Source of the DNA: Psammoneis japonica
Lineage: Eukaryota
DNA length: 64,000 nt
NCBI GenBank assembly: GCA_008632985.1
Contig: QPGO01000162.1
Coordinates: forward strand, 1-64,000
Reading direction: 5' to 3'
Shown here: one piece after another, positions 1 to 52,139 of the stretch
How positions within the stretch are numbered: position 1 is the first letter of the stretch
Layout: each line of letters begins with the position of its first letter
Notes under the pieces: generated by a model
The model's input: only the letters and a program-made list of their open reading frames with translations
Database searches by the model: none
What the model was told of the DNA's origin: nothing
Translations under genes and position numbers: made by a program

Positions 1-3000
1 CAGGGTCAGCCACCTCAGGGCAGTGAAAAAGAGATGGCCAAGCCCTTTTAGAGAGCAGCCCTGGAGGAAAACCAGCTTGTTTCTGCTTTCTTGAATGGAT
101 GCAAATTGGAATGTCTTCAACCAGAAATTCCTGATGTGGCTTTCCATCACCACACAGTCATCAGGCCTTTGGTGGGTGAACATTTGGGCTTTGGAGAGTG
201 CAAAGGCAGCAAGTGGGCTGGAATGCCGGCTGCTGAAAAGGGGCAGATGATGCAGTGCGGTCATGGGATGTGCTTTTGAACATGGAATGAATTTGTTCTT
301 TCATCTTCTCAGACATGATCACAGCTTTGTTGCTCCTCCTGCAGCAGTGGCAGTTCCATTGGTGATCCATCAGGGACTTGCAGGGCTTTTGTCATGATTG
401 TTTGTGGGGAAAGAGACTCAGTTGCTGAACTTTGTGTGGAGCCAAACAAGGCCCAAGTGGATGCCTTAAAGATCAAAAGGGCCAGGGGAGCAAGCATTGG
501 AGAGTCAGTCTTGACTGAGCTGCAAGCAGAAATTCCAACATCGTGGTGGTGGAAGGCAACTGGCTTCATTCTCTTGCCTTTGGGCACAAGACTTTCAAGC
601 AAAACCACTCAATGCTGCTGTTTGGAGTGCTGCAAAGTGTTCATCAGGTGAACATCATTCATTGGGATGCATGCTTTGTGAACATTGTTTTTGCTCCCTG
701 ACAACATGGTTCTCTCAAACCATTGGGGGGCTTCCACAGAAGGCAGCTCTTGTCAACTGGCACAGGGATGTCCACAACCATTTTGTCACCACCAGGACCT
801 GGCCAAGACTCTTGAAGCTGTGCCAGAACCAAAGCATGATTTGCATCCCTTGGTTGCATCCACTGCTCACTTGCTGCTGCCTGGATTGTCTGACAGAGGC
901 CATCAACGCACCACATCAAGCAAGGCCTTCAGTGCAACAGAACAAGTTGTGATGGTGTTTGGCAAGGATTCTTGGAAGCCAGAGTCTGACCATCATTGGT
1001 GATTGTGGGCTGCACAAAGAAGAGAAAAAGGAAGACAACAAGTGCTTCATGGAGAGAAAACAGCAAGAGAACTCATGGGATTGGTGGCTCAGTTGAGCCA
1101 ATCCGAATGCTTCTCTTCCATGGGTGCGCAACCAAGGGCAAGTGTTGTTCCCATTGGTTGTCAAAATCATTGGATTTTGCATCTCACCCAGAAAGTTTCA
1201 TGTGATGAATTGAAACCATCACATTGCATTTTGTGGCAGTGTCCATGCAGAGACAGGTCCAGCAGGAATGCTGCCTTGCTTTGCATCATCCACACAGCAT
1301 CTGCCATCTTGGAAACAGCCAGCATTTGCACTTGCACCAGCTGCCTTGCACCACATAACTCATGTTGCAGTGTCAACTGTCAACAGGACAATCTCACAGC
1401 TCCCAAATGCAAGTTGTCACTTTCCCTGAGATGGTTCATGCCCCAGGCAGTGCCGCCAGCCAGCACTGTGAAGAGAGGAAGATTGGATGTTCAAGTGAGA
1501 CCACTCACATGTGCAAGTCACATGTTCACCGCATGCATCACAAATCATCCCAGACCAATGCTGTTGCTTTGCCATGTTGCTGACAATCAGCAGTTGCAGG
1601 TGTTTCTTGTCACCTTGCCGCATCGCAGCATTGCAGCAATCACCATGTGATGCACGCACCACCATTGCCTGCTGTGGCAATGATGTTGAAAAATTTCTCC
1701 CATGCGCGGCACAAGCTTTGCTCACCCCATTCACATGAGCCTTGCTCAGTTCAGACATCGGCTCATGCACATGTCACTGGCATTGTGTGACCCTGCTGTT
1801 CAAACATTGACTTGTTTCTGCATGCAGTGCATGCAGTGCATGCAACAATTTTGAATGCCATCCCATGCTCACTGTCCACAATTGCCAAATTTTGCCATCT
1901 GTCCAACTAAAAAAAGATGACCAAAACAATGCCTGCAACTCAGCATGAAAGACTTTGACAGTTTTGGGAGCAATGATTGTTGCTGTTCATGTTGCTGCTG
2001 CATTGGGGTTCCGTGGCAGCCACCGACATGCAGCCACACCTGCAAACCATGGGTGTGGCACAAACACGTTCCTTTGTCACTCTCATTTGAGCTCATGCCT
2101 TGCTTTCAGTAGAGTTTGCCTTGCATCTATGGCATCCTTGACAGCCTCAGCTCCTGGGCATGCAACTTTCTTTCACAACCAAACAGAACCTGCTCTTCCT
2201 GTGCTTTTGGGGCATGGCATTGCGGATCTCACTGCATCTGACAATGGCTGGCATTCCAGTTTGGGAGTGCTCACAACATGCAGACATTGTTCATCTGTGC
2301 TCTTGTCTCTGGGAGAATCTTTCCACAAGTCATCTTGCTTTTGCTCACTGAGATGGTCTTGTGACCTCATCCACTTTTGCCCACTGGCAACAGTTTTGCA
2401 AGCAGGTGCCGCACATCTGCAGCAACAGTGCAAAGACCACCACCAGCAGCAACAGAAGAAGCAGCAAGGGGCCATTTCTCAACCCAGCAGTCATGCAGGT
2501 GCTTGTTTGGACCTTTTTTGGATTTGCATCTGTTGAGGACTGCAAGACACCAGGAGCACCAGAAGAACCAGGGCTTGCATTGATGAAGACAGCAGACAAT
2601 GACCACAAGCCAGTTGAGCAAAGTGGATGCTGAGTGCTGAGCAGACTTCATGGGGAAGAAATGTTGAAGGTCCTCCGAGACTGCATGAGTGCAGTCAGGG
2701 CACCAATGATGCACCACCTGGTTGATCCAAAAAAAAGAGCATTGGAGGGCACTGGACCAACTTGCGAGGTTTCTGAAATGCCATTGCCAGCCATTGAAGT
2801 TGAGGTCACCTTTGGAGTTCAGGTCCATTGGAGCATGTGACCCTGATTGTGGGATGGACAAAAATGGTCAAAAGAGCATTTCAAGTCATTTGGACACTTT
2901 GGGTGGCACCTCCTCATCAACCAACTGGCAATTGAGGAAGCAGAGCACAATTGCCTCCCGAGCAGCTGTGAGAGCAAGACACAGTTGGGACAGCATGTGT

Positions 3001-3525
3001 GCAGGACACTCAGTTCCAGAACAACTTGTTGGGCAGAGATTTCACATGTGCAAAGATGATGCTGTGTCACTGTTTCTGGCTGTCAACAATTGAGTTGGTC
3101 AGCAGATAAAACACATTCACACATTTGTGACAGGTGTTTGTTCAAGTTGGTGCAGTGCAGGGAAGTTGAACCATGACACATCATTGTGGAGAATGACCTG
3201 GTGGATGCAAACGGCAAGAACACCTGGGTTGAAACATGTGAGTGACTGTCACAAAATCTGCAAGGTTGGTTTGCAATGGTGGAGCCAATCAAGGAGGGTG
3301 CAATGTTGCAAGCTTCAAGCAGAACTCAGGCGATTGGGTCCCAATCGCAAACCAAAGTGACTCATCCAAGGCATCCTTAGAAACAAGATCAATTGCTCCG
3401 TTGGATGAGGAACGGAAATTGAGTGGTCATTGTGGAGTCTTTGCAATTTGGCAAGATCAATTTGACACAATTGGTTGCCAGAGGAGGTGGACAAAGTGGA
3501 TCACAATCTCACCTGACTTGGAAGA
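1..3525. other. Hypermutated block A (TpA- and CpG-depleted, TpG/CpA-rich) containing unidentified gene relics
   Basis: TA and CG are rare up to about 3525, then common again (e.g. GATACGGTTACTCGTACGAGTAGTAATAG near 3596-3625). ORFs here are Tyr-free and rich in Cys/His/Gln/Trp. Confidence 0.85.
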
Positions 3526-9019: not shown

Positions 9020-9739
9020 ATGACGTTCCCATCGCGACACTTGAACTTGCTCTATTTTGTTGGCGTCCCACATGGAGGGTTATTGTTGTTTTATTCGAGG
9101 ACAGGGTTTGCGTGTCCTCAGTTTGAAGACGCGTCCGTCAGCGAAAGCATCTTTTGCGAACACGGTGCGGAAATGGAGGGATTCGGTACGGCTGGAGGAG
9201 GTCAATGCGGTCGTTTTCCTCGACCCACATGTGACGGTCCTTGCACCATCAAGATCGAGCGGTCCCCGTTCAATTTCATGATTAGCAGCTTCCGGCTTCT
9301 TGATGGTAACGGGCAGTTTGTAGCAAGTTCAAACTGTTTGCCAGCGTTTGCGGATGAGCGCAGGTGCACTGCGGTTTGCCTGAACTCCGATGGATCTCCC
9401 CAAAGAGGCACTTTTGTGTGTTCGGACAACGATTTCGGTTTGTGTGAATGCGATGCACTGTGTGAGGAGATGAATGGCGGTGGTGCCGTTGGCGGTAACC
9501 CATCCACGCTGAGTCCAACTGTGGTGCCTGTAACGCCAGCTACGAAGCCACCTGTTGTGAGCCCGACTCCTGCGCCTGTGTCGCCGGCTACGAACCCTCC
9601 TGTTTTGAGCCCGACTCCTGTGCCTGTATTGCCGCCTACAAACCCACCAGTTGCCGAAAGCATAACCAAAAGGGGTGCGACGCTGAACGTAATCGAGTGT
9701 GTGGCTTCAGTGGCGGTGGGCATGGTGCTGGCATCCTAG
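9020..9739 (+). CDS. Secreted/surface protein: Cys-rich domain, Pro/Thr/Val-rich repeat stalk and hydrophobic C-terminus (possible GPI signal)
   Basis: 239-aa ORF with a hydrophobic N-terminal region, a Cys-rich core, three PATxPPV(V/L)SPTP-like repeats and a terminal VASVAVGMVLAS. A degraded paralogue lies at about 12000-13280. Confidence 0.65.
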   Translation: MTFPSRHLNLLYFVGVPHGGLLLFYSRTGFACPQFEDASVSESIFCEHGAEMEGFGTAGGGQCGRFPRPTCDGPCTIKIERSPFNFMISSFRLLDGNGQFVASSNCLPAFADERRCTAVCLNSDGSPQRGTFVCSDNDFGLCECDALCEEMNGGGAVGGNPSTLSPTVVPVTPATKPPVVSPTPAPVSPATNPPVLSPTPVPVLPPTNPPVAESITKRGATLNVIECVASVAVGMVLAS

Positions 9740-11807
9740 AAATGGCATTTGTGGAGACGATGGTATCCTGTGCGCCACTGGCGTTGTACGAAGCATTGTT
9801 AGATTGACATTGATTTGAATTGAGACTGCCATCAAGCACTCGTATCTGACAGAAGACTTCAGATGCAAGTTGTTGTGAACGTTCTATACATACGAAATCT
9901 CTGCATCATTGTATGAAATCTACCGTGAACAATGTTATAGACTGCAAAAGAATGAGCTGTGTGACATTTGCAGCCTAATAGAAACAAGTTGACTCCCTGC
10001 TTTATGTCGGTGGGAGAAATGTGTGGCCTCTCGATGTACCCTTAGTGCACTCTCTCTTTGTGTAGCTCTTTTGGAATCCACGGTTTGGATTCCGGGAGGG
10101 TGTGCAACAAACCACTACCGGTAGATTTGGTGGGACTCGTTGAGTCCTCAGTGGTTCGCACTCTGTTTTCTACGTTTGGCGCCTGTGCGCCGCTTTGGTT
10201 CGGAGCCCTGCCTTCTTCAGAGCCTTTGCTCCTCTTGCAATGATGAGATTGGGACAGCAAGTGAGCACCGGAAGAGCAGTTTAGTGGTGTCTTGGTCTTT
10301 CCGGCCGATTGAGTTTGGACAAGTGTCGCCCCAGTGTCAGACTTCTGGTGAGTGCATCAGCGGAGGTGATCTGCCAGATGCGATGTTTCTCATGTCATTG
10401 GACAAGCAATGAGGACAACTGCAAACCATGTGAGGGAGTCCATTGCATGGCAAGTTTGCCCAGAATGTTGCACTGGGATCAGTGAAGTGACATGGAGTCA
10501 GTGCGATTTTTGAACTTCTGGTGGCCAAGTTTCAAGTTGAGAACAATGGAGCGTGTGCACACACTGTGGCAGAGATGATGTTGCAGAGTTGCCAGCATGT
10601 TGCTTCAGTGGCTGCCTGTTCCTCTCTCTCTCTCTCTCTGAAGTGGCCTTTGTGCAAACCAACAATGTCACCTCACAAGATTCTCCAGTGTGCAAGGGCT
10701 CTGCTGAACTGGCAGCATGTGCTGTGTCCAATCTTGTTTGATCTTCTTGACAATCTCTTGAATCAAACTGTCACCAAATGATGCAAAGAGATCAATCAAT
10801 CAATGTGTTGTCAAAAAAGACCATGCTGCTCTTAGGCCATTCTGGGAGACAATGTTCTTGATGTTCTTGTCAACAACCCCAGTGACAAAGAGTTGATCAA
10901 CACAGTGAGTGGGTTGTGCCCAAGATGCAATTCCACCAAAGTGTTGCGTTGTGGCAGTGCCAAAGGAACAAGAAAGCCAGTTTTCACCACACAGGGGCAG
11001 ACAGGCTCAGCACTTTGCATCAGCATCAGCATCAGGCAAGCCTCCGCCCAAACTTCAGGAGGAAGAAAGAGACGTCCACCCGGCTGCAGCCAGAAAGCAG
11101 ACACACTGGAAACAGTGGCGCCAGAAAGACAGACTCAACTTTCAAAGGACAGCAGGGCACAGCTGAGTCCATGGCTGTGGCTTCTTTTTTCACATGACAG
11201 AGTTTCTGCTTCTGCAAGGAGAGTGGATCATTTCCAGCCTCCAAACACTTTTCTGGGTGCAGGAAAAGTTGCGAAGTTCTTTGGCACCTGTTTCACAAAT
11301 GGCCTCTGCACTCATCATTCATCAACTTAGCTTCCAAAATGATGGAAGCTTCAGAGCAGTGAACTTGGATGTGAGAAGGTTGCAGTCAAGCTGCAGAGAG
11401 CACGCGCACTGCCACACAACATGCAACAACTGCTCTCACTTCAACAGGTTGTGGCAAAGAAGTCAGCATCTGGAAACTTCAGAATTTTTTCAGCCCTGCC
11501 TTCTTTTCAATTCTTCCAACAATGCCTTCCTTTTCCCAACTTGCTGCTCCAGAGAACAATTTGACAAGGGCTGTCCTCCCATGCACTGCCACTGGGGAGG
11601 GAGCACTGTAAAAGCAGTGGATGAGAGCTTCCAAATCATCTCTGTCATTGCCTGCACTTTGAACATCACAGCAGAAAGCAATGATGGTGTGATCCTTGTC
11701 CTGCTTTCCCCCATCACCAGGGAAAGAGCAAATCAGTCATCATTGGATTTTTGCTTTGTTGGTGCCACCCAACATTAAAATTGCACCTTCCTTGTGCCCA
11801 ACTCTTA

Positions 11808-11970
11808 AAAAGATTCAATGGTCCCAAGCATTTGGCAACAAAGATCATTGCTTCATTGCAGAGTTGAGAAAAACTGCTCAACTTCCATCGCATCTTTGGC
11901 ACAAAGTGGTCTGGGAATCTGCCTCATTTTTTGTGACAAGCAATTTAGAAAAACACTGCATGGGACACCA
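11808..11970 (+). repeat. About 165-bp dispersed repeat, copy 1 (copy 2 at 28981-29150)
   Basis: AAAAGATTCA(A/G)TGGTCCCAAGCATTTGGCAACAAAG...TCTTTGGCACAAAGTGGTCTG...GACACCA is present at both sites. Confidence 0.9.
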
Positions 11971-11999
11971 TTCAGTGTGGCAAAAGGCACAGGAAAACT

Positions 12000-13280
12000 T
12001 CTGGCTGTTACGAGCACAAGCTGAAATTGCTGGTGTTGCACCGCACAGAACTCATGACAGCGGCAGTCATCATCAATCATCACCACCACCAACACACAAC
12101 ACAAAAACACTGCTGCACTTCTCTGCATGCAACATCATGGCAAAATGGCCAATCATGCCATCAGGGAGATCACCAATGATGCACAGTCACTGCTGAGAAG
12201 CAGCACACATGTTGCACTCACTGTGCCCATGGGTCAACCTCTCAGCCAGCCACAAGGATGTTCCCATCATGACACTTGAACTTGCTCCATTTCATTGGTG
12301 GCAATCATGGAGTGTTGTTGTTGTTTTCTTTGATGGCAGGTTTTGTGTGTCCTCAGTTCAAAGAGGCGTCTGTCAGCAAAAGCATCTTTTTTGTGAACAT
12401 CGTGGTGCAAAAACGGGGGGAGTCAGTGTGGCTGGAGGAGGTCAATGTGGTCAGTTTCCTTGACCCACATGTGACGGGCCTTGCACTGTCAAGATCAAGT
12501 GGCACCCATTCAATTCCATGATCAGCAGCTTCTGGCTTCTTGGTGACAACGTCACGGGCAGTTTGCAGTGCAAGTTCAAACTGTGTGGCAGTGTTCACAG
12601 ATGAGCACAGGTGCACTGTGCTGGTTAGCCTGAATGCCAGCAAATCCCCTGGAGAGGTGCTTTTGTGTGTTTGGACAATGTTTTTGTTTGTGCAAATGCA
12701 ATGGTGGTGGTGCCATTGGTGGTGACACATCCACAGCAAGCCATTGTGTCACCTGCAATGCCAGCCGGCCACAAACCCACCCAAGGTGAGCCCGACTCCT
12801 GCACCCACAGTGCCAGCTGCAAACCCTCCTGATTTGAGTCTGACTTCTGACTCCTGTGCCTAAAATGCCACCTGCAAACCCACTGGTTGCCAAAAGTGCA
12901 GCCAACAGGGGTGCAGCACTGATCACAGTCAAGTGCACAGCATCAATGGTGGCAGGCGTGGCTCTGGCATCATCCTGGAAATGTCATTGGCAGAGTTGAT
13001 GGGAACCTGTGCCCCGCTGGCATTGTAAGAAGCATCGTTTGATTGACATTGATTTGAGCAGAAACTGCTGCCAAGTGCTCACATCTGACAGAAGACTTCA
13101 GATGATGCAAGTTCTTGCAATCAAGCTTGCATGAAATCTGTGTGCCAGCATTGTGTGAACTCTGCATCTGCTCAACACAAAAATGCAATCCACCGCAGAA
13201 AAGTGGTTGCATGACATTTGTGGCCTGGTGGTGAAGAGTTGACTCAATTCTTCAAAACAGCGGGAAAACTGTGGCCTCTC
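12000..13280 (+). pseudogene. Hypermutated duplicate of the 8785-10030 locus (gene 9020-9739 plus flanks)
   Basis: Collinear similarity, e.g. GACACTTGAACTTGCTC, GGCTGGAGGAGGTCAATG, GACCCACATGTGACGG, GTGAGCCCGACTCCTG and TCTGACAGAAGACTTCAGATG. The copy has frameshifts and stops, and its TAG stop reads TGG. Confidence 0.92.
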
Positions 13281-14687
13281 ATTTTTGTGAAGAAGGAGCT
13301 GAGAACCCCCCACTCAATTGATCACAACATCTCCTCTTCTTCATTTTCAATGCAGTGAAAAAACAACAGAGGCACTTGGGCTTGTCCAAAAAGGATGCCA
13401 CAATTGGCATCATTGTCTCAAGTGAGCAAGTTGCTGGAAGATGAGGAGTGAAAGCCTGCCAGCATGAGCAATGGGGGCAGCGCCACCTCCACAGTTGCAA
13501 CCAAAAGTCCCTGCCTGCACTTTGGCTGGGTGCAAGAGAGCAAAGTGGAGAAAGGCCTTTGACACCGTGGCAGAAGGAGAACACAGCAAACATGGTTGGT
13601 GCACACCCTGTCTCTCTTTGGCATCAAAGCCAAGCTGGCCTCAGCCCTGCTGCTTGCCAGGCACAAGCTGAGCCTTGGCACACCTCTCCTGCAAGTGCCT
13701 CCCATGCTGGCTTGACTGCACAGATCATTGTGGCCCTGTTGTTTCTCTCCCATGTCTTGCCTTGCAGATGAGCCTTGTTTTTCGAGAAAGCAAAGTGGGG
13801 CAAGGCCTTTGGGGGGCCCCTTTTGGTGGCAGAGCATGGCAAACTTGATTTGCACAATCTCTGTCTCTTTTTGGCACCAAAGCCACCACGGCATCACAGC
13901 AAGCACCTGCCAAGCTGACCTCAGCCATGCTTCTTTCTTGGTGCGCCTCTCCTGTGAGCACCTGTCATGCTCCTGGCTTGATCACAGAGATCATGCCAAC
14001 TCAACAAGCATGGCTAAACTTCAGCACAAGCTCACCTTTGGTGTGCCACAGCTGGAAACTGTGGAAACCAACTCACCATGACAACTCTGCACAGTCACCA
14101 TTTTCTTAACAGCGCAACCTTCAAGGGCCACAACAGTTGACAGCATGTGGCACCTGCAGTGCATCGCATCTGGCAAACTCATGTGCGGGAGAGTGGAAAT
14201 CATGTGAGAGTGTGATGGGTGTGGCACCTGTTTTCTCTGTGATCAATTGTTTTCAAAGCACAGCAAGGTGCAGACAAGCAATGTTCATTGTGATCCATCC
14301 ACACTTCTCAGAGTCATGGTGAGTTCATTCTTGTCATTGATGGAGCACACTGCACTTGCGGCCACCATTGTCATTGTGTTTTGACAAGCCGTGGAAATTT
14401 TCAAATGTCAAACATTCACAGACAAAATTGCAAAAAAGAGTGCATGTTCTTTGTCATTGAGAGTTTGTTGCACACAGAGCATGTGAGCTTTTCATCAGCC
14501 AAGCTTTGTGGCTGCATCGTGCATTTTTTTTGCTGCTGAGTGCAGCTTCTGTCAGCATCCACACACAAACATTGGGGTTCAAAAAGAGCAACAGGGGTGG
14601 GCTCTTGGCACCAAAGGAAAGAGCCACCTCTGGCCTGTTCCAGCTCCAGGTGATTCGCAGCCACAGGAGGTTCGACTCCCATCATTT

Positions 14688-14857
14688 GCCCATTTTTGCA
14701 TTTGGCCGCGCATTGAACTTTTTCAAAATCCGTTTTTTGCCAAATCGAAGGGCAAATGCACACTTCACATGCATTTTAGGGTGTGCACTTACCTTTCAAT
14801 TTTTGAAATGATCAAAATTGCAGGAGTTTAATGCGCTGAACTGTGCAAAAAATCGGC
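14688..14857. repeat. Imperfect about 170-bp palindrome (fold-back/MITE-like)
   Basis: Left arm GCCCATTTTTGCA..GCGCATTGAACT..AATCGAAGGGCAAATGCACAC. Reverse complement of the right arm GCCGATTTTTTGCA..GCGCATTAAACT..AATTGAAAGGTAAGTGCACAC. Confidence 0.6.
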
Positions 14858-16428
14858 CTTTCGCGTGATGGATTTCTCATCACCTGGGGCTGGAACAGGC
14901 CCTCCTTGGGCAAGCGCACAGCTTGTTGAAAATGTGGCACATGACAGCACCGTGAAAATAAGGCAAGCTGCTTTTTTTGCAGCTGCTGCACTCTTTGGAA
15001 GTGGCAGGGCAAAATGAGGGTTTCAGGTTGAACATCGGGGTGGTGGTGTTTGGAGCTGTCCCGCTGTGACACCCAGCAAAGACGGGGGGCACTTTTGTGG
15101 TGGTCATCACGACATTGAGCAGAGCTGTGTGTGACCTGTTGCAGCTGCATTGATCACCTGGCCATCCACAAATTCCCATGTCCATGCTTGTCCGAGTGGG
15201 GCGCCCTCAGTCGACGTGTTCAAAGGAGGAACCAAGTTCATGATGTGTTGCACGTGGAGAAAGGACAGACACGCAGAGACGTGAAACTCGCGCGCGCGAC
15301 GCTCGATTAGCGACAAGATGTCATGTCGATTCTTACGGAATACTGTCCCTGTGGATTGGACATCTCAATTAACAGGCACGAATCTGCTGATTAAGCAATT
15401 CGTGACACGGGTGTCTGAACAGTTTTTCCGTGTTTGCGCGTTTGCGTGAATGCTCAGTGGATTAAAATGTAGAATGGACAGATTGGAGATTGGTCATTCG
15501 TTAAATGTTCGCATGTTTCTGAGATTTGAGAAATTTGATTCGCTGAAATCTGCCTGTACGGAGACAAAGCTCGAAATCATGAAAAATAGACATTTTTCTA
15601 AATGTCTTCGCAGCTAAAGACCCCTAAGTGATTTTCGACATATATCGACTCCACAGGTGCATGACTGCAGTAAAAGGGACATGTTAATTAAGGCTCTTGG
15701 ACATGCAAATAAGCAAATAGTTGACACGATTTCTGATCAGAAGTTCCGTGATTCGATCGTGGAAACAACACCGAATGCGTTCTTCCTACACTAGGGCTAC
15801 CGCACCGTACTGTGCTTCCCCTCTCTCATAAATCATACAAAGAAGGAAGAAAAACACGACACTTTTTTGAGAACACCATCATGATCATGAAGCGTCTCCT
15901 CTCCGTGGTGGGAGTCATGGCCACCTCCCTGTTGCATCCTGTGGCTGCAAAGTTGGGATCCAATGTGAGTGAAAATGGGCGTGTTGCGACCCATTGTTCT
16001 CATTTCCAGCACAGTCGAGTGACAAACCGTCGTCTCTGCTAGAGAGAGGCGGGTCGCGTGAGAGTTGTGACAAAGAATCGATCGCAACGTCCCTTGTCCC
16101 CACACCTTGTGCAACTTGTGTGGCTCTACCCTGTTTGTCGCGCGGCACTCACCCCAATCCACTGGAGTGTTTGTCGAGGAGTCGCCGCTTGCTCGATCGA
16201 CATGGTGGAAAATACGATTCATCATGATGGTCGGTCGGGTTCGCTGTTGTGATGTTGCTTGGTCTTGTATTCGACTCGTCCGACTCCGTGTACCGGTAGT
16301 GTCACACACGTACACACGGATGGACAAACAAACCGACTCCACAAGCAACAAGCGAGCAACGCAACGCCACAACCCACAACAAACCACCGACAACCGACAA
16401 CAGTATCCAGTATCCAGCATGATACATC

Positions 16429-19238: not shown

Positions 19239-20030
19239 TTAATGCATCCCTTTGCTCGCATTGACTGCTCGATGCACCAGGTCCATGATTCGCCAAACTG
19301 GTGGAGTCAATAGAGTTGATCTCAATCGGAAACGAGCCGAAGCATGCTTCAAACAGTCGTGTTCCGGGTACGGAATCCCATCATCAATCCAAACAAAATG
19401 ATGCACGTCCATACTTTGACAGAGTCGTTGATACATGAACACATAATAGTGAATTCCACTGCTCCTGTTCCGCGTCGCATAAACAATGCATTCGTCATGG
19501 CGGCACCATGGGCGGCAACTACAACGTCTTGGCGGTGCAACAAACAACCAATGTCACAAAAACGTGCTGTGTCTTTGTGGTGCACACCTGGAAAACAGAC
19601 AACTGCTGAGAGCGCAACAGTGCCAAAGCAAGTGAAATTGTCAAGAGCTGGTGCATCCAGCCAGCACGATGGTAGCTCTTCTTTAACAGGGGGTGTCATC
19701 AGCACCTTCCTGCACAATGCTGGAAAAGAGCACTGTGGCAACAGAGTTGCAAAGCAAGCAGAAAGCAACAAGGTGTCATTTTGTGCTTCTTCTGTGTCAT
19801 GGGAGTCAAGATGCTGAGCAGGGGCAAGGGTGGAGCACACACTTGGCACTGGCCATGATGAGTTGGCCACTCTCATCTCAGCACTGAGGAAGCAGAGCAT
19901 CACTGCCCAATGTTGTGGCATTGGCATTGCTGCAAACATGACTCGATGGTCAAAAATCAAAACAACATGAGTGCAGGGATTTTCTTGCAACCCCTCTGCC
20001 CCCTGCTGGGAAGAAACCTTTCCATCAGGG
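19239..20030 (-). pseudogene. Glycosyltransferase family 61-like relic
   Basis: DVVVAAHGAAMTNALFMRRGTGAVEF matches the GT61 HGA(G/A)xTNxxF motif. Frameshifted. The 5' part lies in the depleted block and the 3' part (below about 19515) has normal composition. Confidence 0.65.
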
Positions 20031-20231
20031 CATGCATTTGTGCCAGAAAAAGGGTCCAGTGCCCCAACAAAGAAGAAAAGCCCAGAGCTTTGTGGGGGGA
20101 AAGGCAGAGAGCAAGGCACTCCTCTTGCAAAGAGGGTGGTCATGCTGAGTGTTTTGTGGTGGGAGCAGCCAGCAACAGAAGTCCAAGGTGCTGCCACACT
20201 GCTGCTCCAAGCAATGACAACAAACAGCAAC

Positions 20232-20401
20232 AGGAAGAGCACCAACGGGCAAGAGCAACAAGCCAAGGAGCTCCCTGCAAACTGGCAACAGTGGACAACA
20301 CATGCACCAATTTCAGAGAGATTGTTTCGACTGTCCAAAGACATCTGACTGCCACCCACAAACAAACAGTCTGACCATGCACAGTGCAGAGTCAGCTGAC
20401 A
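20232..20401 (-). repeat. 3' LTR of the Copia element
   Basis: Shares GGGCAAGAGCAACAAGCCAAGGAGCTCCCTGCAAACTGG and AAACAGTCTGACCATGCACAGTGCAGA with 27033-27221. On the minus strand it starts TGT, immediately after purine-rich AGGGTGGGA (PPT-like). Confidence 0.85.
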
Positions 20402-23400
20402 TCCCACCCTGATCCAGCATGTCCAACAGAGGAGACAAAGTGGGGTCACAGACAGAACAGAATTGGGAAGTCAACAATCAGCAAAAGTGACACATGGAGA
20501 CTGGATTGCTCTTGAAGAAGTTGGACAGGGTAAAAACAACAAAGGGCAATTCTGCAAATGCCAAAAGACAACAAATCAGGACTCAATGGCGCTGTCCCAT
20601 CATCCGATGGGCATGGCAGGCATGCAGCATTGAGCCAAGAGCTTTGGTGAGGTCACCACTCAGGTTGATGATGCCCGGAATGTGTCAAGTGACAACATGT
20701 CTGTCCTTCTTCCAATCCTGAAGGATGGGCCACTGGGCGTCAATGTGGCCAGATTGTTCAGTCGGAACCCAATTGTTGAGAATCTTGATTGCAGATTCAT
20801 TGTCAACACACAAAAGAGTGGGGCCTTTCTGGACAAAAATCCAAGTTCCCAAAGGACTGACTGAAGGCAGAGAGCAGAGAACCTGTTTGGCGGCAGTGCC
20901 AGCAGCACAAAACTTGGCTTTGGCAGAACTTGCAGCTGTCACCTTTTGCATCAATGCAAAATGGCAGCACCAGCTGGCATGCAAACAACATGCCTGGTCA
21001 TGGAATGATGATTGCAAAGGTCATTGCCACAAACAGCATCCAACAAAGCTTGCAGTTGGGTGAGAGAGTCCAGGGAACCAGGGTGAAAACAGATTCAGCT
21101 CAAGGTGAGCAAAATGATGTGAAGGTGAGGTGGGATCCTTGGTGGGCTTCTTGCATCCCACAACACTTTGCAGGTTGGAGGCACTTTGCAACCCCTTTCA
21201 ATGCATTGCAGTGCATTGGCACCAAACACAAGGCAGACTTCAAGATTGTCATGACAAGAATGCATCCAATGTTGAGGCAGCAAACAATGTGGGCATGCAA
21301 CAATTTGCCAAGAAGGTCATGACACCCAAAACCACAAAGTTCAGCTAACTCCTCATGTTCAGAGGTGCTTTCCATGGGACGAACATCAGAGTGGAATCGG
21401 AGTGGCCTGAAAATCTAAGCCTGCAATTCATCCGCAGCTGAGTGGGGCCATCCATGTGATTTCAAGATGTGGTTGATGCAGCTGTGATGCACGATCGAGG
21501 TGGAGTCATCATGCTGATGGACATCAACACCATTGAACTTGGTGCAAAGACCCAAGTGCTTGAAAGAGTTCACATCCTCACCAGGAACATGGAGTGACTT
21601 GCCAATTGAGTCAAAACTCTTGGTCATGATGGACTCTTTGGGACATGCAATTGCAAAATCATTGACCTGCCAGAGAAGAAGAACATGCTTGCCCTCAAAA
21701 GTGCCAGCACAAATGCACTTGTCATGCACTGTGTTCCAAAACAAAAGTGCAGCATCCACCAAGATGCTGTTGATGTGGTTCTCCCAAAAAATGCCGGACT
21801 CAGGGTGTCCTTGCAAGGCATGCAGGATGGGAAGTGCCTCTGGCCAATCAAGGTCAACACCAAAGCAATCCTTGTGCCAAGAGGCATGTGTGTTGTCAAT
21901 TTGGACATGGAAGGGGGTTGAAGGACAAGGGGAGTGAGCACGCATGCATTGAGCATCACCAGCAAGTGCTTGACAGGCCATGGAAGCCAAGAGAGCAAAA
22001 AACAGCTGTCGGATGGGTTGTTCCACACAGGAGGAGTGGGTGGACTGGAGGCAATGCAAAGCAGGGGCTGCACATGAAGATCCATCACAGCAGCAGTGGG
22101 AGCAGCATGTGCCATCCGTCTTGACGTCATGTTGCCAGTGAGGGTGGAGAATGGCTGCACCTTTGGGGTGCTGGGGAACTGGTTTGCCAAACATGCCCAG
22201 CTCATGGAAGAAGTGGTCCAGTTGCTTGAACTTGCCATCCAGCTCTTGTTCTTCAGGAGTCACTCTTGAGAAAAGAGAGCAAAAATGTTGAAGGCACTGG
22301 CATCCTGGTCAATTGCAGGTGAGAACTCATGGTCCATGCCATCCACAGCAGAGAAATCAATGTCTGGGAAGTGCAGTTCTGCAATGCAGTGTGCACCAGC
22401 CAATGTCAATTCAAGAACATGTTCCTCTTCATCCTCTGCAGGAGGGCAGAAAATGTTGTGCACAACCAAGGTGCACTGGAGGTGTTTGGAATCAAGTTGA
22501 TGCTCTGGAGTGAGCACACAATCTCAAACTCAGGGTTGTCTGCATCATGAAGATGGCAGAGTTCAGCAATGACCTGATCCGCAGTGAAAACATCAACACA
22601 ATCATTGGAAACTGCATGTGCACCCAAAATCATGTTCTTGGCAGCCTTGAGGGAGGAGAAAACACAAGAGGCAGTGCTGTTCCACTTGATGTCTGAGAGA
22701 CAGTTGCAGTTGAATGATGCATCCACAGCAGTGCCTGTGCCAAAGAGTGCATCCAATGGGGAGCATGTGGGATTGCCAGAAAAATGAAACTTCTCCACAG
22801 ATGATTCCATTGATTCAGCAGGGACGGGTCAGGATTTTGTCCTGTGGGAGGCAGTTCATGCCTTCATCACAGCAGAAAAGTGCTTGTCAACCTTGACACG
22901 AGATGTGGCAGGACCATGCTGCATGATGTTCTCAGTGGCATCACGGAGACAGCCAAGGAAGATGCCCTTGACTGAGTTGGAGTGCACCATTGCAGGTTGC
23001 TTCTTGTTCTTGTGGGCCCAAACACGACAACCAAATGTGCACGACACCAAAAAAAATTCCCTCTTTCCTGCAGCAAGAGTGACAGGAGCAACATCATGTC
23101 CTTGGAGGGGCAAGCATTCTTGACACAGAGACAGTGATGGAAAAGCATGGGGCCAGAACTTTGCGGGTGAGTCTGCACCAATGAGCATGGAATGGACAGC
23201 ATTCTGCACCGTCAAGGGACTGCGTTCAATGGGGCCATTCTAATTGGAGGCATCAGCCCCAGACATGCAGATCTTGCAATTGAATTCTTCCTCAAAAAGT
23301 CTGCACAATGCAGGGTCACAGAGTGCAGCTCACCACCTTGATCCACAAATGCACATTTGTCTGGATGTTTTGGTGAGTGCTCATGCAAGAATTAGCAAAT

Positions 23401-26400
23401 CCACATGATTGGAGTTGCTTTTGAAGCAGGAGCAGCACCATGGAGGCAACGGAGGTGCTGTTGGTCACACACAGCAATCCACAAGTCTGGCCACCATCAA
23501 GCCCAAGACAATCAACCACATGGTCTTTGTTCTTGAACTTCAAACCAGCCAATGCAAAATCAACCATGAGTCCTTGATGCACTTGAGCAGCAATGCAGGT
23601 GGAGTTGGGACCCATGGCATTCTCAGTCTGCTTCACTTGGGTGCAGGCAGGGCAAGTGTCCAAATGAGAAGTGCCACATGGGCAAACTTTGGGACCCCAT
23701 CAACATGGTGGCAAGCATCACAAAAGTGGTGATCACTTGGGTTTGCAAGGTGTTGGTGCCATGGGAGATGTTCAGTGTCAGCCTTGAGTGCCTGGACTGG
23801 TGCCTTCTTCTCAAGGCAAGCATCAAAAGGCATGTCTTGACAACAGTGTGAGATCTTCTTCATCTCATGCTGCAGAGCCTTCTTTTGGGGTTGGGGTTGG
23901 GGGTTGGTTTTCCTTGCAGGTGTCAATCACATGCACACAATGACTGCATCACATTCTTTGGCAAATGATGGAGCAGAGATCTTGAGCTCTTGAATGGACT
24001 CATCAACAATGTCATTCATTTTGAGGAGGATGAGGCAAAACACTTCTCATTGATCAGTTGCCCATGAATGATGACATCTTGTCTGGAGCAAAGTTGGTGT
24101 TGCGCGCACCTTGATCGTGGAACTTGAGCAAACAATCAACAGCACAGCCCTTCTTGTGATCACTCATGGATGTGCTGAAGGCCCGTTTGTTGACAAGGGT
24201 CACCTGGAGCTGTGGGGAGGGTGGCAAGCATGTGTGGCAACATGTCCAGCTTTGCTTGCCATGGGGATTCCAAGGTGTCCACAGCCATGGGGGGGCACCT
24301 TGACCAAGCACCAGGTTGACCTTGAGGGGGCATGGGTTGGACAGTGCAAAGGCTTGGCAGTGATGAAGCAGGTCCAGGTCACCAGTGCAGGAGATGCAGA
24401 CTCCAGCATCAAACTGAGCACAGTGCTTGTCACTCTCAAAATGAATGGTGTTTGCAAGGCATTGCACTTGTTGGAGTGTTCAAGGTTGAAAGGTTTGTCC
24501 AATGGTTGCTCAACAGTTCCTCTGCCCTCCCCTGATCTTGATCCCTCCCCTGATCTGCAGTGTGAAGCAATGGATCATTGTCAGGGAGAGTGATGATGCC
24601 AGGTGTTGTCAAAGAGGAGATGGGATGGGTGGCATCCACAACAGCATCTGGAGAAAGAGGTTTTGAACAAGCAGAAGGCAATGAAACGGGGGGGGCTCTT
24701 TCACAGCTGCCCCGCCATCATTGGTGTTGTCTTGGAGAGGAGAAAACAGGCTGCATTGAAGATCCAAAACCAGCTGAGATAGCCCAACTGAAAATCCAAA
24801 GGCAGAGATTCAGCAGGTGGGAGTGCTTGACCCCTCTTCCCAGAGGGCAAGTTTCCCTGTGTGCCAGCAAATGCAGCGGCAAGTTGAGCAGCCTCTCACT
24901 TCAAGAAATGGCACAAAAGCAAATGTGAAATCCCTTGATGCAAGGGTTGTTCTTCAGGATGGGACAATCTTCAAAAAGATGTTCACCAACACAAACTGAA
25001 CAAGGGCAGTTGGCAGCCTTGTTGGGCATGACCTTGAGCTTGAAAACAGATGCTGAGCAAGCAGCATGATGCAAGAGATGGCAGTTGTCTGTTGCAGGTG
25101 CATGAAGCAAGTTCAATTCATTGCAGAGAGACTTTCAAAAGTTTTGTTGCGCATGACCAGTGCATCATCAGGGGTCGAAATGTCTTTGGGTGGAGCAGGT
25201 GCTGGTGGGGCAACGTCAGCATTTGGAGGGGTGTCACAGTCCACAGCATTCACACCAAAAGAAGTGTGGGCAGAGTGTCATCACAATGTTTGTGTTGGTG
25301 GCATGGGTTCCGAGCATGCATGGAACAGTCATCCAAGCAGATCAGACTGTCTGCTGGGCTCAAAAACGTGCTGAGTGTTTCAACAATCTGTTTCTTGGTG
25401 CACTTGCACTTGCAGGCCAACAAATCTTGTTCATGTTCAGCAACCAAAGACAAGGACTTCCTCAAGCACTGGGCATTCTTGACAAAGACAGTCATCTCAT
25501 GAGGGTCATCCAAGGATGAGCCCATGTCAAAAATGAATGTGCTCAGTTGCAAAAAATCCTTGAACAACACAAAACAATTGTTGATCTGCAGGTTGCCTTC
25601 CTTGGGGCATGCATCAACCAATCACACTGCTTCCTCACAAAATGCTGGGTGAACTTGAAAAAGAATCTGTTTCAAGGTGCTGCAGCTGTTGCCACAGCAC
25701 AAGGCAACAATGCTGTGCAAGCGACTGTTCTTGGGGAACATGTTTGAGTGCAAGAGAAGCTTGTGCAAGGCATGCAAAGCTTCAAGGCAATGGATTTGCA
25801 TCTGTTGCAGGAGGTTGATGTCCTGGCTGTCAACAATTGCAAAGCCTCTGTCATCACCATGGTTTCATTTGAATCACCACAAAGGGTGTGCAAAGTGTCC
25901 ACAATCAGTGGCATGGTGCTGGAAGTTGAGATGCCACTGACAAATGCACCATGGAGAGAGTCATTGTGACAGAGACTTGGTTCATGGATGAGAGTCTTAT
26001 GATCTGGGGTTTGGCTGATGACAAAGAGGGAGCCATCAGGTGGGATGAGGTGGTCCGTTCCATCCAGGTGATGCACAGACCCACTGGAGCAGTGAACCAG
26101 TGAGTTCTTGAGGATCACTTTCTCAGACTCCTTGTGGTTGAAATGAGCTCACACATCCTTGGGCAGAGCATCTGGGTGGAACAAGAACTTGGACAAAAGG
26201 GTCATGGTGGGTGTTGTGCCAGAGCTTGTAACTTGGGATGAGGCAGCACCTGAAAGAGCTCAGTTGTCATTCAGTGCATCAATCAGATCTTGAACGTCTG
26301 CAGATCCTGAAGCATGGGACAGTGCCAGTGGGGTCTTGGGAGCATGGACTGGTGGGGATGTGGCAGCTGAGAACAACTTGCCCCAGTCCCTGAATGCATG

Positions 26401-27032
26401 TTGTGTGGAAGGAGAGAAGCACAGACATGAGATGCTGACAAAAACAATCACCTCGGTCTGCTGAGTCAAAAGGGCTGCCTTGATTTTATGGTCCATCATC
26501 TGTTGAGACAGATTGGATGGTTGATCTGATGATGCAGGGATGGAAACCTTGAGAGCGGCTCTGTTGAAGAGCAACATCACTGGAGACATGTTGAGAGGGT
26601 TGAGGGTTTCCAGCAGAATGAGCTCTCAAAGGATGTGATCCTTGAGTTGATCAATGATGTCATCCTTGGTTGTTGCATGCTTGAGATCCTCAAAAAATGA
26701 ATCCAGATTGATGTGATGACACCACAACAAAGGCTGTCAAAGTGCTTGGTGACTTCACTGCTTCAAGCATGTTGTTCAAAGACAACAGAAACCTCCTTGA
26801 GGGTGTCACAAGTGGGCTTCTTGGGGGCAGAAGGAGTCATGGTGGTGGATGAGGTGCACAAAGTTGTTGATCATGCACATGCAGAATCTGGCGTTGGTCT
26901 GCAAGAGCCTGTGCGCTGATGAAAAAAGCTGTTGGGATCAAAAATGGTGGCCGGCTTGTTCAGCTCACAAACCAAATGAATTGCAGCAGAAGTTGCAACA
27001 CAGAAGAATGACAACCTGATGAGGCCACTGCC

Positions 27033-27221
27033 TGTCAGAGCACTGGTGGGCAAGAGCAACAAGCCAAGGAGCTCCCTGCAAACTGGTGACAGTGGATGAC
27101 ACATGCACTGGCAAGAAAAAGTGAGAGAAGATCTCAGAGAGATCATCTCGACTGTCTGCCAAAGACATCTGACCATCATCTGCAAACAGTCTGACCATGC
27201 ACAGTGCAGATTCAGCCAACC
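27033..27221 (-). repeat. 5' LTR of the Copia element
   Basis: Direct repeat of 20232-20401. On the minus strand it ends ...GACA and is followed by GGCAGTGGCC, a possible mutated PBS. Confidence 0.85.
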
Positions 27222-27499
27222 ATCACATGCATTCTCAAAGCCTTGGCATGAGCTGGGAAGCAACCAATGTCAGGTTCTGAGTCTGCCCTTGGACAAAGGT
27301 GATTTGCTGCATTTGTTGTCATTTTCAGTGGTTGAAGGCCATCTGCCAGTCTGCCTGCTGGCAAGCATGCATGAGAAATGAGAAGAAGTTCACATGTGAC
27401 ATCACCTTGCAGCATGGGTGGATGACAGATGCTGCAGTGGGATGATGAAACTGGGTCATGTAGACAGGAAAAGGGAGGGGTTTGGAGTGGGAAACAGCA

Positions 27500-52025: not shown

Positions 52026-52139
52026 ATCACACTGCGTTGGAAGCTGTCTGTCTCGTCTCATTGAAAACTGAGTGACTCGGAGGGAGTGACTTGCTTGCAA
52101 CCAGTTTTAGATTGGATTCCATGCTGCTTGGCACTCCAG

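What the first reader, a model, noticed from the sequence alone, without database searches (positions are those of the whole stretch)
12000..13280. Intact gene and its mutated duplicate 3 kb away give the direction of mutation directly
Aligning 8785-10030 with 12000-13280 by eye: GCAGCATA(8960)->GCAGCACA; GGTACGGC(9185)->AGTGTGGC (TA->TG and CG->TG side by side); ATTAGC(9281)->ATCAGC; TGTAACGC(9529)->TGCAATGC; GCTACGAA->GCTGCAAA; CCTACAAA->CCTGCAAA; stop TAG(9737)->TGG(12976); TCGTATCT(9840)->TCACATCT; GTATGAA->GTGTGAA; CCTAATAG->CCTGGTGG. Nearly every alignable TA of the open copy is TG or CA in the broken copy, in both orientations. The target is a host-type gene duplicate rather than a TE, and one copy largely escaped, unlike classical RIP, which usually hits both copies.
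Basis: seen in the sequence. Interest (0 to 1): 0.88.

Follow-up and report, generated by a model that had tools for sequence, protein, structure and literature searches.

The report
TA- and CG-erasing mutation blocks in diatom
A dead copy of an expressed diatom gene lies in one of several sharply bounded stretches where almost every TA and CG has been mutated to TG or CA, which points to a TA-specific DNA mutation process for which my literature searches found no description.

Summary
Copy B (11979-13280) is a pseudogene paralogue of the transcribed orphan gene A (CDS 9020-9739). Of A's 35 aligned TA, 1 survives in B and 23 are TG or CA. Of 68 CG, 6 survive and 52 are TG or CA. Other dinucleotides are kept at 67%.

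The direction TA→TG/CA is supported independently. In a copia element in another block, 0 of 16 conserved Tyr columns keep Tyr (8 Cys, 6 His). In an open frame of a "TA-only" block, 1 of 18 Tyr is kept while Arg CGN codons persist.

The duplicate is not the target. B sits in a 4.3-kb block that runs 1.6 kb and 1.4 kb beyond the homology. Nine such blocks, with borders sharp to ≤50 bp, cover 65% of the window, while gene islands, introns and spacers are untouched.

The loss is strand-symmetric, shows no strand tracts, depends on flanks (RTAY lost fastest, YTAR slowest) and went on over time (TG↔CA swaps).

Best reading: a long-running TpA-specific A:T→G:C process plus CpG decay in silent DNA. 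It is not classical RIP. The enzymology is unknown, and six paper searches found no description.

The parts
9020..9739 (+). Copy A: intact CDS of an orphan, probably secreted, Cys-rich and Pro/Thr-rich protein with a hydrophobic C-terminal tail. The region homologous to B is 8760-10032.
   Evidence: The frame 8954-9739 is open with Met at 9020. A cDNA-like contig of run X2 covers 9050-9993 with 0 differences. No homologue was found and no Pfam family. That the protein is secreted is my reading of the sequence and was not tested.
11979..13280 (+). Copy B: pseudogene paralogue of A that has lost its TA and CG.
   Evidence: Alignments. Start codon lost, two CGA→TGA stops, 8 insertions and 4 deletions relative to A's CDS. 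All in-frame stops seen are TGA.
10332..14651 (.). D block (TA and CG both nearly absent) that contains copy B.
   Evidence: HMM segmentation gives 12 TA, 40 CG and 998 TG/CA. DNA contigs of X1 cover it at depth 60-87, as for the flanking genes, with 1 difference and 1 gap.
32952..33076 (+). Fragment C: third partial copy (3' part of gene A), also mutated.
   Evidence: blastn E 5e-17 to 9767-9880. In the three-way alignment one CG of A appears as CA in B and TG in C.
1..3519 (.). D block
   Evidence: 8 TA, 27 CG, 826 TG/CA. Its border at about 3520 is sharp to ≤50 bp.
19536..33428 (.). D block, 13.9 kb, holding the copia relic.
   Evidence: 28 TA, 86 CG, 3221 TG/CA.
20592..24292 (-). Degenerate Ty1/copia polyprotein, used as the outgroup test of direction.
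   Evidence: tblastn with P0126 matches residues 11-1277 of 1280. The RT piece P0122 hits homologues at E 3e-78. Of 16 conserved Tyr columns 0 keep Tyr (8 Cys TGY, 6 His CAY). Of 17 conserved Arg columns 2 keep Arg and 12 are Gln, His, Cys or Trp. p = 5e-10 and 1e-7.
33431..40812 (.). T block: TA nearly gone, CG mostly kept.
   Evidence: 42 TA, 280 CG, 1380 TG/CA.
33866..35128 (+). Open frame of 421 codons in the T block, a gene relic with almost no Tyr.
   Evidence: Its one homologue, P0275, is 60% identical. Of 18 aligned Tyr, 1 is kept, 8 are Cys, 5 His, 3 Phe and 1 Ile. Of 19 Arg, 10 are kept, 9 of them as CGN. p = 7e-7 for Tyr and 0.33 for Arg.
40814..43924 (.). D block
   Evidence: 9 TA, 16 CG, 745 TG/CA. 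Sharp border at about 43926.
51501..53701 (.). T block
   Evidence: 13 TA, 80 CG, 468 TG/CA. Sharp border at about 51500.
53704..58916 (.). D block
   Evidence: 9 TA, 45 CG, 1228 TG/CA.
58918..60494 (.). T block with an F-box-like open frame (59679-60332, minus strand) that has 1 Tyr in 218 residues.
   Evidence: Sharp border at about 60496.
14656..15270 (.). T block that overlaps a high-copy repeat.
   Evidence: 4 TA, 21 CG, 126 TG/CA. Word depth about 4025 at 14406-14872 and 424 at 14873-15339, against about 60 elsewhere.

Best explanation
SHOWN. Copy B is a dead tandem paralogue of the transcribed orphan gene A. It lies inside one of nine sharply bounded blocks. Five blocks have lost both TA and CG, and four have lost TA but mostly kept CG. 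Together they make up 65% of this window, which comes from a probable pennate diatom.

In these blocks TpA and CpG have been converted to TpG/CpA by transitions within the dinucleotide. The number of YpR steps per kb is unchanged.

The process acts on double-stranded DNA. TG and CA outcomes are equal, also within one retroelement. It acts site by site, with no strand tracts. It hits transposon relics and gene relics alike. It spares the expressed gene islands, including their introns and spacers.

TpA loss is separable from CpG loss and faster (the T blocks). It depends on flanks: RTAY is lost fastest and YTAR slowest. The process went on after the first depletion, because TG↔CA double swaps are 10-30 times commoner than independent hits would give.

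INFERRED. The blocks are long-silenced DNA. The CpG part is ordinary deamination of 5-methylcytosine. The TpA part comes from an unknown TpA-directed mutagenic activity or base modification of silent chromatin that gives A:T→G:C. Candidates are adenine deamination to hypoxanthine, or thymine oxidation (5hmU/5fU, TET/JBP-type) that mispairs with G.

Under an equilibrium reading, a TA is lost about 100 times, and a CG about 33 times, as fast as one is regained from TG/CA. T blocks are then younger and D blocks older. Copy B is a bystander in such a block, not the trigger.
For: Mosaic and mass balance:
- TA o/e is 0.62, 0.10 and 0.03 in normal (N), T and D sequence. CG o/e is 1.00, 0.68 and 0.12.
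- YR steps per kb are 242.1, 237.3 and 242.6.

A versus B:
- TA kept 1 of 35, CG kept 6 of 68, other dinucleotides 721 of 1077.

Polarity from outgroups:
- Copia, D block: Tyr 0 of 16 (14 Cys or His), Arg 2 of 17, all other residues 181 of 237.
- T-block frame: Tyr 1 of 18, Arg 10 of 19, not different from the rest.

Symmetry and independence:
- CG→TG 24 and CA 28; TA→TG 11 and CA 12.
- 39 runs of outcomes against 38.3 expected.
- Tyr codons gave Cys 16 and His 11, whatever the preceding base.

Flank dependence:
- Of the 66 TA surviving in D blocks, 42 are YTAR (15.5 expected) and 1 is RTAY (15.8 expected), p = 2e-14.

Ongoing process:
- TG↔CA swaps are 25 of 210 between A and B and 29 of 185 in six pairs of repeats inside D blocks.
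- In the three-way alignment A and C share CA where B has TG, and A and B share CA where C has TG.

Regional limits:
- Introns and spacers of normal blocks keep TA o/e 0.56-0.82.
- Borders are sharp to ≤50 bp.
- The block runs 1.6 kb and 1.4 kb beyond the A/B homology.

The sequence is real:
- DNA contigs of run X1 cover normal and depleted DNA alike at depth about 60, with 0-1 differences.

Context from the literature:
- Diatom transposons are CG-methylated by DNMT5a (PMC9998398; passages read).
Against: - No methylation, chromatin or small-RNA data exist for this genome, so 'silent chromatin' is inferred.
- Borders sharp to ≤50 bp fit a trigger defined by an element or by homology at least as well as a chromatin domain.
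- The whole genome was not available. Copy number and age could not be related to TA and CG loss beyond 14 kb of read depth.
- The T-block polarity rests on a single homologue.
- The only DNA run that holds the sequence may be the source of the assembly, so it is not independent.
- The rate ratio of TA to CG loss differs between T blocks (about 6) and D blocks (1.5 apparent, about 3 under equilibrium). One two-rate model therefore fits only roughly.
- No chemistry was tested. No half-site asymmetry was found that would favour either candidate.
- Some A/B swaps could come from changes in A's own lineage or from alignment error.
Confidence: 0.68

Rival explanations
1. An acute genome defence triggered by repeats or homology: like RIP in logic, but with a new chemistry (TA→TG/CA plus CG→TG/CA). 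It would mark duplicated or transposon DNA in one or a few rounds. Later decay would explain the rest.
For: - Everything identifiable in the blocks is a duplicate or a mobile element: copy B, fragment C, copia, a high-copy repeat.
- Borders are sharp to ≤50 bp.
- Diatoms carry DNMT4 enzymes related to fungal RID, of unknown function (PMC9998398; passages read).
- A young high-copy repeat is already TA-poor but keeps its CG.
Against: - Copy A is untouched although it is 77% identical to B and only 2 kb away.
- The block extends 1.6 kb and 1.4 kb beyond the homology and is single-copy by depth, 60-87.
- There are no strand-coordinated tracts.
- TG↔CA swaps within depleted lineages need continued action.
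- Surviving TA are far fewer, and differ in flanking context, from what regrowth after a single old event would give.
Confidence: 0.2
2. The direction is the reverse. TG/CA would be ancestral, and copy A would have gained TA (classical RIP, CA/TG→TA) and CG.
For: Classical RIP does produce TA from CA/TG. A two-sequence comparison alone cannot give polarity.
Against: - Homologues from other organisms have Tyr where the window's copia has Cys or His in 14 of 16 conserved columns, and Arg where it has Gln, His, Cys or Trp in 12 of 17.
- The T-block frame shows the same for Tyr.
- Copy A is open and is covered by a cDNA-like contig, while B has frameshifts and stops.
- Copy A's composition equals that of conserved genes, introns and spacers.
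- Copy A would also have had to gain 62 CG.
Confidence: 0.01
3. RNA editing (ADAR-like A-to-I, APOBEC-like C-to-U) of transcripts, followed by reverse transcription and integration of the edited copies.
For: One block holds a retrotransposon. From recall, not from any call: ADAR favours a 5' U, which would give UA→UG.
Against: - Within the one copia coding strand, A→G (Tyr→Cys, 8) and T→C (Tyr→His, 6) are equally common. Editing of the sense RNA cannot give T→C.
- There are no strand tracts.
- Almost every TA is lost, while transitions at other sites stay at background level.
- Blocks include DNA with no sign of retro-origin and end sharply next to normal spacers.
Confidence: 0.02
4. An artefact: modified bases misread by the sequencer or polisher, or a misassembly.
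For: Block-wise systematic miscalls at modified bases are known for some platforms (recalled, from no call). The only DNA run found may be the assembly's own source.
Against: - Logan contigs built from the reads reproduce 6000-11868 with 0 differences and 11843-14737 with 1 difference and 1 gap. They form a single path at full depth of about 60-66, with no half-depth TG/CA bubbles.
- The depleted copies also differ from their relatives by indels and transversions.
- Amino-acid patterns are coherent across 3.7 kb of copia.
Confidence: 0.03
5. A genome-wide mutation bias against TA and CG that shows only where selection is absent. The normal blocks would simply be under constraint.
For: The normal blocks are gene-dense.
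Against: - Three cDNA-supported introns and six spacers inside normal blocks keep TA o/e 0.56-0.82 and CG o/e 0.7-1.7.
- TA is frequent across codon boundaries and at third positions of conserved genes.
- Borders are steps of ≤50 bp, not gradients.
Confidence: 0.03

Closest known systems
Repeat-induced point mutation (RIP) of ascomycete fungi
   Same: Dense, context-specific transitions confined to sharply bounded segments that hold duplicates and transposons. They destroy coding capacity and leave a dinucleotide signature. An untouched paralogue can serve as the reference.
   Different: - RIP is C:G→T:A, mostly at CpA, and so creates TpA and TAA/TAG stops. Here TpA is destroyed (A:T→G:C) and TAA/TAG stops are erased.
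- RIP mutates both copies within the duplicated segment. Here copy A is untouched and the block exceeds the homology.
- No strand-coordinated tracts were found.
CpG decay by deamination of 5-methylcytosine in methylated transposons (vertebrates, plants; diatom transposons are CG-methylated, PMC9998398)
   Same: Symmetric CG→TG/CA. Independent events at each site. Limited to silent or repeated DNA. The equilibrium o/e is near 0.1.
   Different: This explains only the CG half. No known methylation-driven process removes TpA. Here TpA goes first and faster (T blocks).
CTAG depletion in enterobacteria, ascribed to very-short-patch (Vsr) repair of T:G mismatches (recalled, from no call)
   Same: A DNA-level process that turns TA into CA/TG within a defined context and leaves a depleted word in the genome.
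   Different: - It is bacterial and genome-wide.
- It is tied to the Dcm site CCWGG.
- It is weak. It is neither regional nor near-complete.
Hyper-editing of retroelements by ADAR or APOBEC enzymes
   Same: Clustered transitions in mobile-element copies, with a preference for certain neighbouring bases.
   Different: Those are strand-specific and partial. Here both strands are hit equally within one element, almost every site is hit, and DNA that is not of retro-origin is included.
Thymine hydroxylation at TpA: base J in kinetoplastid telomere repeats, 5hmU enriched at TpA in dinoflagellates (recalled, from no call)
   Same: A precedent for an enzyme that modifies T on both strands of the palindromic TpA step in silent or repetitive DNA of protists.
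   Different: - It is not known to erase TpA from the sequence.
- It is not known in diatoms.
- No modification data exist here. It is only a candidate chemistry.

Membership tests
Fungal RIP | Mutations are C:G→T:A transitions that raise TpA and lower CpA/TpG. | tested here: not met
   TpA falls to o/e 0.03 and TpG/CpA rise to 1.85-1.90. Polarity is TA→TG/CA.
Fungal RIP | Both copies of a duplication are mutated. | tested here: not met
   Copy A has normal composition and an open frame, and a cDNA-like contig covers it.
Fungal RIP | Mutation is confined to, or just beyond, the duplicated segment. | tested here: not met
   The block extends 1647 bp and 1371 bp beyond the A/B homology and is single-copy by depth.
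Fungal RIP | Dependence on a RID/DIM-2-type cytosine methyltransferase, and premeiotic timing. | not testable with these tools
   No genome is held. Diatom DNMT4 is related to RID, but its function is unknown (PMC9998398, passages).
5mC-driven CpG decay | Symmetric CG→TG/CA, arising site by site. | tested here: met
   CG→TG 24 and CA 28, with 6 of 68 kept. No runs of like outcomes. Arg CGN codons became Gln, His, Cys or Trp in 12 of 17 columns.
5mC-driven CpG decay | The affected DNA is cytosine-methylated. | not testable with these tools
   No methylation data were available.
5mC-driven CpG decay | It accounts for the whole signature, with no other dinucleotide lost. | tested here: not met
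   TA is lost more completely than CG, and alone in the T blocks.
ADAR/APOBEC editing of retro-copies | Changes lie on one strand, in clusters. | tested here: not met
   Tyr→Cys 8 and Tyr→His 6 on one coding strand. Runs test 39 against 38.3 expected.
Ty1/copia retrotransposon (the relic at 20592-24292) | Polyprotein in the order gag-protease-integrase-RT-RNase H, with similarity to copia RT. | tested here: met
   tblastn aligns residues 11-1277 of the 1280-residue homologue P0126, collinear on the minus strand. phmmer E 3e-78. Weak Pfam hits to RVT_2 and SH3_retrovirus. LTRs were not identified.

The most novel reading that the evidence does not exclude
This diatom has a dedicated activity, aimed at silent chromatin or at mobile elements, that specifically converts TpA to TpG/CpA in double-stranded DNA. 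It could be a modification or a deaminase, and it prefers RTAY. It acts about 100 times faster than TA is regained and several times faster than decay of methylated CpG. That would be a genome defence of opposite polarity to RIP, an 'anti-RIP' giving A:T→G:C. It wipes out every Tyr codon and every TAA/TAG stop in its targets and leaves kb-scale TA- and CG-free deserts. A few Tyr-less copia proteins among the public homologues hint that it is not confined to this window.
Probability: 0.45. Interest if true: 0.92.

Novelty: new variant of a known kind. Interest (0 to 1): 0.82.

Why it matters
- Regional point-mutation decay of silenced DNA is known in only two forms: RIP (C→T in repeats) and CpG decay. 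A TpA-specific A:T→G:C process that is regional and near-complete would be a third form, with unknown chemistry.
- It could point to a natural activity on double-stranded DNA that edits A:T to G:C, or to a new mutagenic base modification in diatoms.
- It would change how diatom transposons are dated, because transitions at YpR steps are not clock-like.
- It would change how diatom genomes are annotated. DNA without TA has only TGA stops, so it yields long spurious frames rich in Cys, His, Trp and Gln and lacking Tyr.
- The A/B pair and the copia relic give ready-made polarised test cases.

Tried and rejected
- **Whole genome:** none is held, so genome-wide copy number and age could not be examined.
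- **Outgroup orthologue of gene A:** none found. The word-indexed search gave 0 hits among 1503 candidates.
- **Earlier notes of this scan:** three look-ups returned nothing.
- **Expression:** no RNA holder is listed for the stretch. Run X2, which behaves as cDNA, has no contig on 10203-16273. I do not count that blank as evidence.
- **Metagenome search for depleted relatives:**
  - The first alignment, A2, was too divergent.
  - With A3, 2 loci encoded a relative out of 173 pattern matches. Both have normal TA and CG.
  - So no depleted DNA was recovered from elsewhere.
- **Half-site model (TAY or RTA on one strand):** no asymmetry of outcomes with the preceding base. After a purine, TG 9 and CA 6. 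After a pyrimidine, TG 7 and CA 6.
- **Processive strand tracts:** none.
- **Terminal inverted repeats around the T block 33431-40812:**
  - Arms 33531-33766 and 40256-40488 match 79% in purine/pyrimidine space.
  - The four-letter alignment scores 477.5, against 366 ± 25 (maximum 426) for shuffles, and is low-complexity.
  - Not convincing.
- **LTR pair for copia:** 20236-20396 and 27037-27216 are homologous, but the second lies about 2.7 kb beyond gag, so they are not shown to be LTRs.
- **Pfam on block frames:** of 124 open frames from the blocks, 9 gave hits at E ≤ 0.01, all below the curated cut-off apart from a low-complexity GLTT repeat.
- **tRNA scan:** 0 genes.
- **Paper searches:** six searches found no description of regional TA→TG/CA loss. 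Only search listings were seen, apart from passages of PMC9998398.
Full report
**What the window is.** The window is eukaryotic. Normal-looking parts encode SGT1 (44303-45571), a PP2C phosphatase, MYG1 and ribosomal protein L10a. Among the 120 best SGT1 homologues, the few that carry an organism name are pennate diatoms (Nitzschia, Seminavis, Cylindrotheca) at 44-48% identity. The best unnamed hits reach about 52%. No whole genome is held.

**The observation.**
- The two regions are homologous: blastn E 6e-168 and MAFFT alignment A1.
- A transition-tolerant alignment pairs 8760-10032 with 11979-13280: 1215 bases, 77.4% identical. Identity rises to 86.3% when purines and pyrimidines are collapsed.
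- Of 35 aligned TA in copy A, copy B keeps 1 and has 11 TG and 12 CA. Of 68 CG it keeps 6 and has 24 TG and 28 CA. All other dinucleotides are kept in 721 of 1077 cases. Fisher tests give p = 3e-15 and 4e-22.
- Outside YR dinucleotides there are 31 transitions and 29 transversions in 491 sites.

**The two copies.**
- Copy A has an open frame (Met at 9020, stop at 9737-9739) for a Cys-rich, Pro/Thr-rich protein with a hydrophobic tail.
- Copy A has no homologue in the word-indexed search and no Pfam family.
- Copy B has lost the start codon. It has two CGA→TGA stops, 8 insertions and 4 deletions relative to A's CDS.
- One run (X1) holds 99% of the sampled words and may be the assembly's source.
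- X1 contigs reproduce 6000-11868 with 0 differences and 11843-14737 with 1 difference and 1 gap. Depth is about 60-66, the same in normal and depleted DNA.
- A second run of the same sample (X2) carries three GT..AG joints (6221/6305, 7340/7442, 16446/16632). It therefore behaves as cDNA. It has a 944-base contig on 9050-9993 with no differences. Copy A is therefore transcribed.

**The larger pattern.** A dinucleotide scan and an HMM over YR dinucleotides split the window into three states.

| State | Blocks | Share of window |
|---|---|---|
| D: TA and CG nearly absent | 1-3519, 10332-14651, 19536-33428, 40814-43924, 53704-58916 | 47% |
| T: TA nearly absent, CG mostly kept | 14656-15270, 33431-40812, 51501-53701, 58918-60494 | 18% |
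| N: normal | remainder | 34% |

- TA o/e is 0.62 (N), 0.10 (T) and 0.03 (D). CG o/e is 1.00, 0.68 and 0.12. TG and CA rise to 1.85-1.90 in D.
- The sum of the four YpR dinucleotides per kb is constant: 242.1, 237.3 and 242.6. So the change consists of transitions within YpR steps.
- Borders are steps of ≤50 bp at about 3520, 19535, 43926, 51500 and 60496.
- Copy B lies in the D block 10332-14651. That block extends 1647 bp and 1371 bp beyond the homology with A.
- The block is single-copy by depth, apart from a high-copy repeat at its right edge (14406-15339).

**Direction.** The pair A/B cannot give polarity alone, and no orthologue of A exists in the searched library. Two independent outgroup tests were possible.
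1. *Copia relic in a D block.*
   - The D block 19536-33428 holds a near full-length Ty1/copia polyprotein on the minus strand, 24292-20592.
   - There are 270 columns where ≥8 homologues agree at ≥60%.
   - Tyr is kept in 0 of 16 columns: 8 Cys TGY, 6 His CAY, 1 Ser, 1 Gln.
   - Arg is kept in 2 of 17 columns; 12 are Gln, His, Cys or Trp.
   - All other residues are kept in 181 of 237 columns. By residue this ranges from 33% for Val (n = 6) and 50% for Glu (n = 14) to 100% for Cys.
   - p = 5e-10 and 1e-7.
2. *Open frame in a T block.*
   - The 421-codon open frame 33866-35128 has one homologue, P0275, at 60% identity.
   - Of 18 aligned Tyr, 1 is kept, 8 are Cys, 5 His, 3 Phe and 1 Ile.
   - Of 19 Arg, 10 are kept, 9 of them as CGN. 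That is no different from other residues.
   - p = 7e-7 and 0.33.

TA and CG are therefore ancestral and TG/CA derived. TA loss can occur without CG loss.

**Properties of the process.**
- *Strand symmetry.* TG and CA outcomes are equal, also on the single coding strand of copia. This excludes editing of a sense RNA.
- *No tracts.* 39 runs of outcomes against 38.3 expected.
- *Flank dependence.* Of the 66 TA left in D blocks, 42 are YTAR (mostly CTAA/TTAG and TTAA) and 1 is RTAY. If they were fresh arrivals from TG/CA, 15.5 and 15.8 would be expected, p = 2e-14. T blocks show the same trend.
- *No half-site asymmetry.* Outcomes do not depend on the preceding base.
- *Continued action.*
  - TG↔CA double swaps are 25 of 210 between A and B and 29 of 185 in six repeat pairs inside D blocks.
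  - Independent transitions at both sites would give about 0.4-1.2%.
  - In the three-way alignment A and C share CA where B has TG, and A and B share CA where C has TG.
  - The swaps are most simply explained by TG/CA mutating to TA or CG and then being resolved again.
- *Regional limits.* Three cDNA-supported introns and six spacers in normal blocks keep TA o/e 0.56-0.82.
- *Rates.*
  - If D blocks are at equilibrium, a TA is lost about 106 times, and a CG about 33 times, as fast as one is regained.
  - In T blocks the apparent ratio of TA to CG loss is about 6.
  - T blocks can therefore be read as younger and D blocks as older.

**Interpretation.** The best reading is a long-running decay of silent DNA in sharply bounded blocks, with two components.
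- The CpG part matches deamination of 5-methylcytosine. Diatom transposons are CG-methylated by DNMT5a (PMC9998398; passages read).
- The TpA part has no known counterpart. I infer a TpA-directed mutagenic modification or deamination. The candidates are adenine deamination and thymine oxidation. Both rest on my own recall of the chemistry and were not tested.
- Copy B is a bystander in such a block. Copy A escaped because it lies in the neighbouring expressed gene island.
- The main rival is an acute trigger based on repeats or homology. It is favoured by the sharp borders and the repeat content. It is disfavoured by the untouched copy A, the overshoot beyond the homology, the lack of tracts and the continuing swaps.
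- Reverse polarity, RNA editing, an artefact, and a genome-wide bias masked by selection are each contradicted by specific results.

**Spread and novelty.**
- Among the 150 best copia homologues in the public library, 4 have under 1% Tyr.
- P0232, P0227, P0224 and P0238 have Cys or His at 3-4 of the conserved Tyr columns they cover, and mostly keep Arg. P0129 shows the opposite pattern: Tyr kept and Arg→Trp at 3 of 3 columns.
- Their sources could not be looked up, so they may come from the same organism.
- The two related metagenome loci recovered have normal composition.
- Six full-text searches found no description of regional TA→TG/CA loss in diatoms or elsewhere. I saw only listings, so a description in a paper outside the library or its supplements cannot be excluded.

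**Verdict.**
- The idea that the gene duplicate is the target is not supported.
- The real finding is a block-wise erasure of TpA and CpG, whose TpA component appears undescribed.

Noticed in passing
all D and T blocks, e.g. 33866-35128, 19352-20470, 21418-22308: DNA without TA has only TGA stops, so long open frames abound. 124 of the 162 stop-to-stop frames of ≥110 codons lie in the blocks. Their products lack Tyr and are rich in Cys, His, Trp and Gln. Gene callers will report them as proteins.
   Followed up: partly
14406-15339: A high-copy repeat at the right edge of the block that holds copy B. Word depth is about 4025 (14406-14872) and 424 (14873-15339), against about 60 elsewhere. It is TA-poor but keeps its CG. 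It holds a self-inverted stretch at 14651-14892 in purine/pyrimidine space and a GGTTCGACTCC motif like a tRNA T-arm (the likeness is from recall). ARAGORN finds no tRNA. It could be a MITE or SINE that spreads in a TA-free form.
   Followed up: partly
19352-20470 (minus strand), block border at about 19536: An open frame carries the last 38 positions of the Glyco_transf_61 profile at 19457-19570. The match scores 22.5 bits, below the cut-off of 27. It lies right on the border between a normal block and a D block. If this is a true gene relic, the border cuts through a former gene rather than along an insertion junction.
   Followed up: partly
proteins P0232, P0227, P0224, P0238; P0129: Public copia homologues with the same signature of Tyr→Cys/His with Arg kept, and one with the opposite pattern of CG-only decay (Tyr kept, Arg→Trp). 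Their sources could not be looked up.
   Followed up: partly
33531-33766 and 40256-40488: Inverted pyrimidine-rich and purine-rich arms just inside both ends of the 7.4-kb T block. They are 79% alike in purine/pyrimidine space. The four-letter alignment is only weakly above shuffles. They may be degraded terminal inverted repeats of a DNA transposon.
   Followed up: partly
6222-6304, 7341-7441, 16447-16631: Three GT..AG introns supported by contigs of run X2. That run is labelled 'DNA?' but behaves as cDNA.
   Followed up: no
17770-19400: DNA contigs drop here to about half depth (29-39), with clustered variant letters. This suggests two diverged haplotypes of a diploid. The stretch 6000-14737 is at full depth with no variants.
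   Followed up: no
28381-29113: A GC-rich (0.57) internally repeated stretch inside the large D block. It matches itself both directly and inverted. The neighbouring 28981-29151 is 88% identical to 11808-11971, next to copy B.
   Followed up: no
six repeat pairs inside D blocks: At sites outside YR dinucleotides, transitions outnumber transversions 40 to 8 in 366 sites. Transitions in general may therefore be raised in the blocks, not only at TA and CG.
   Followed up: no
5467: A single N in the window.
   Followed up: no
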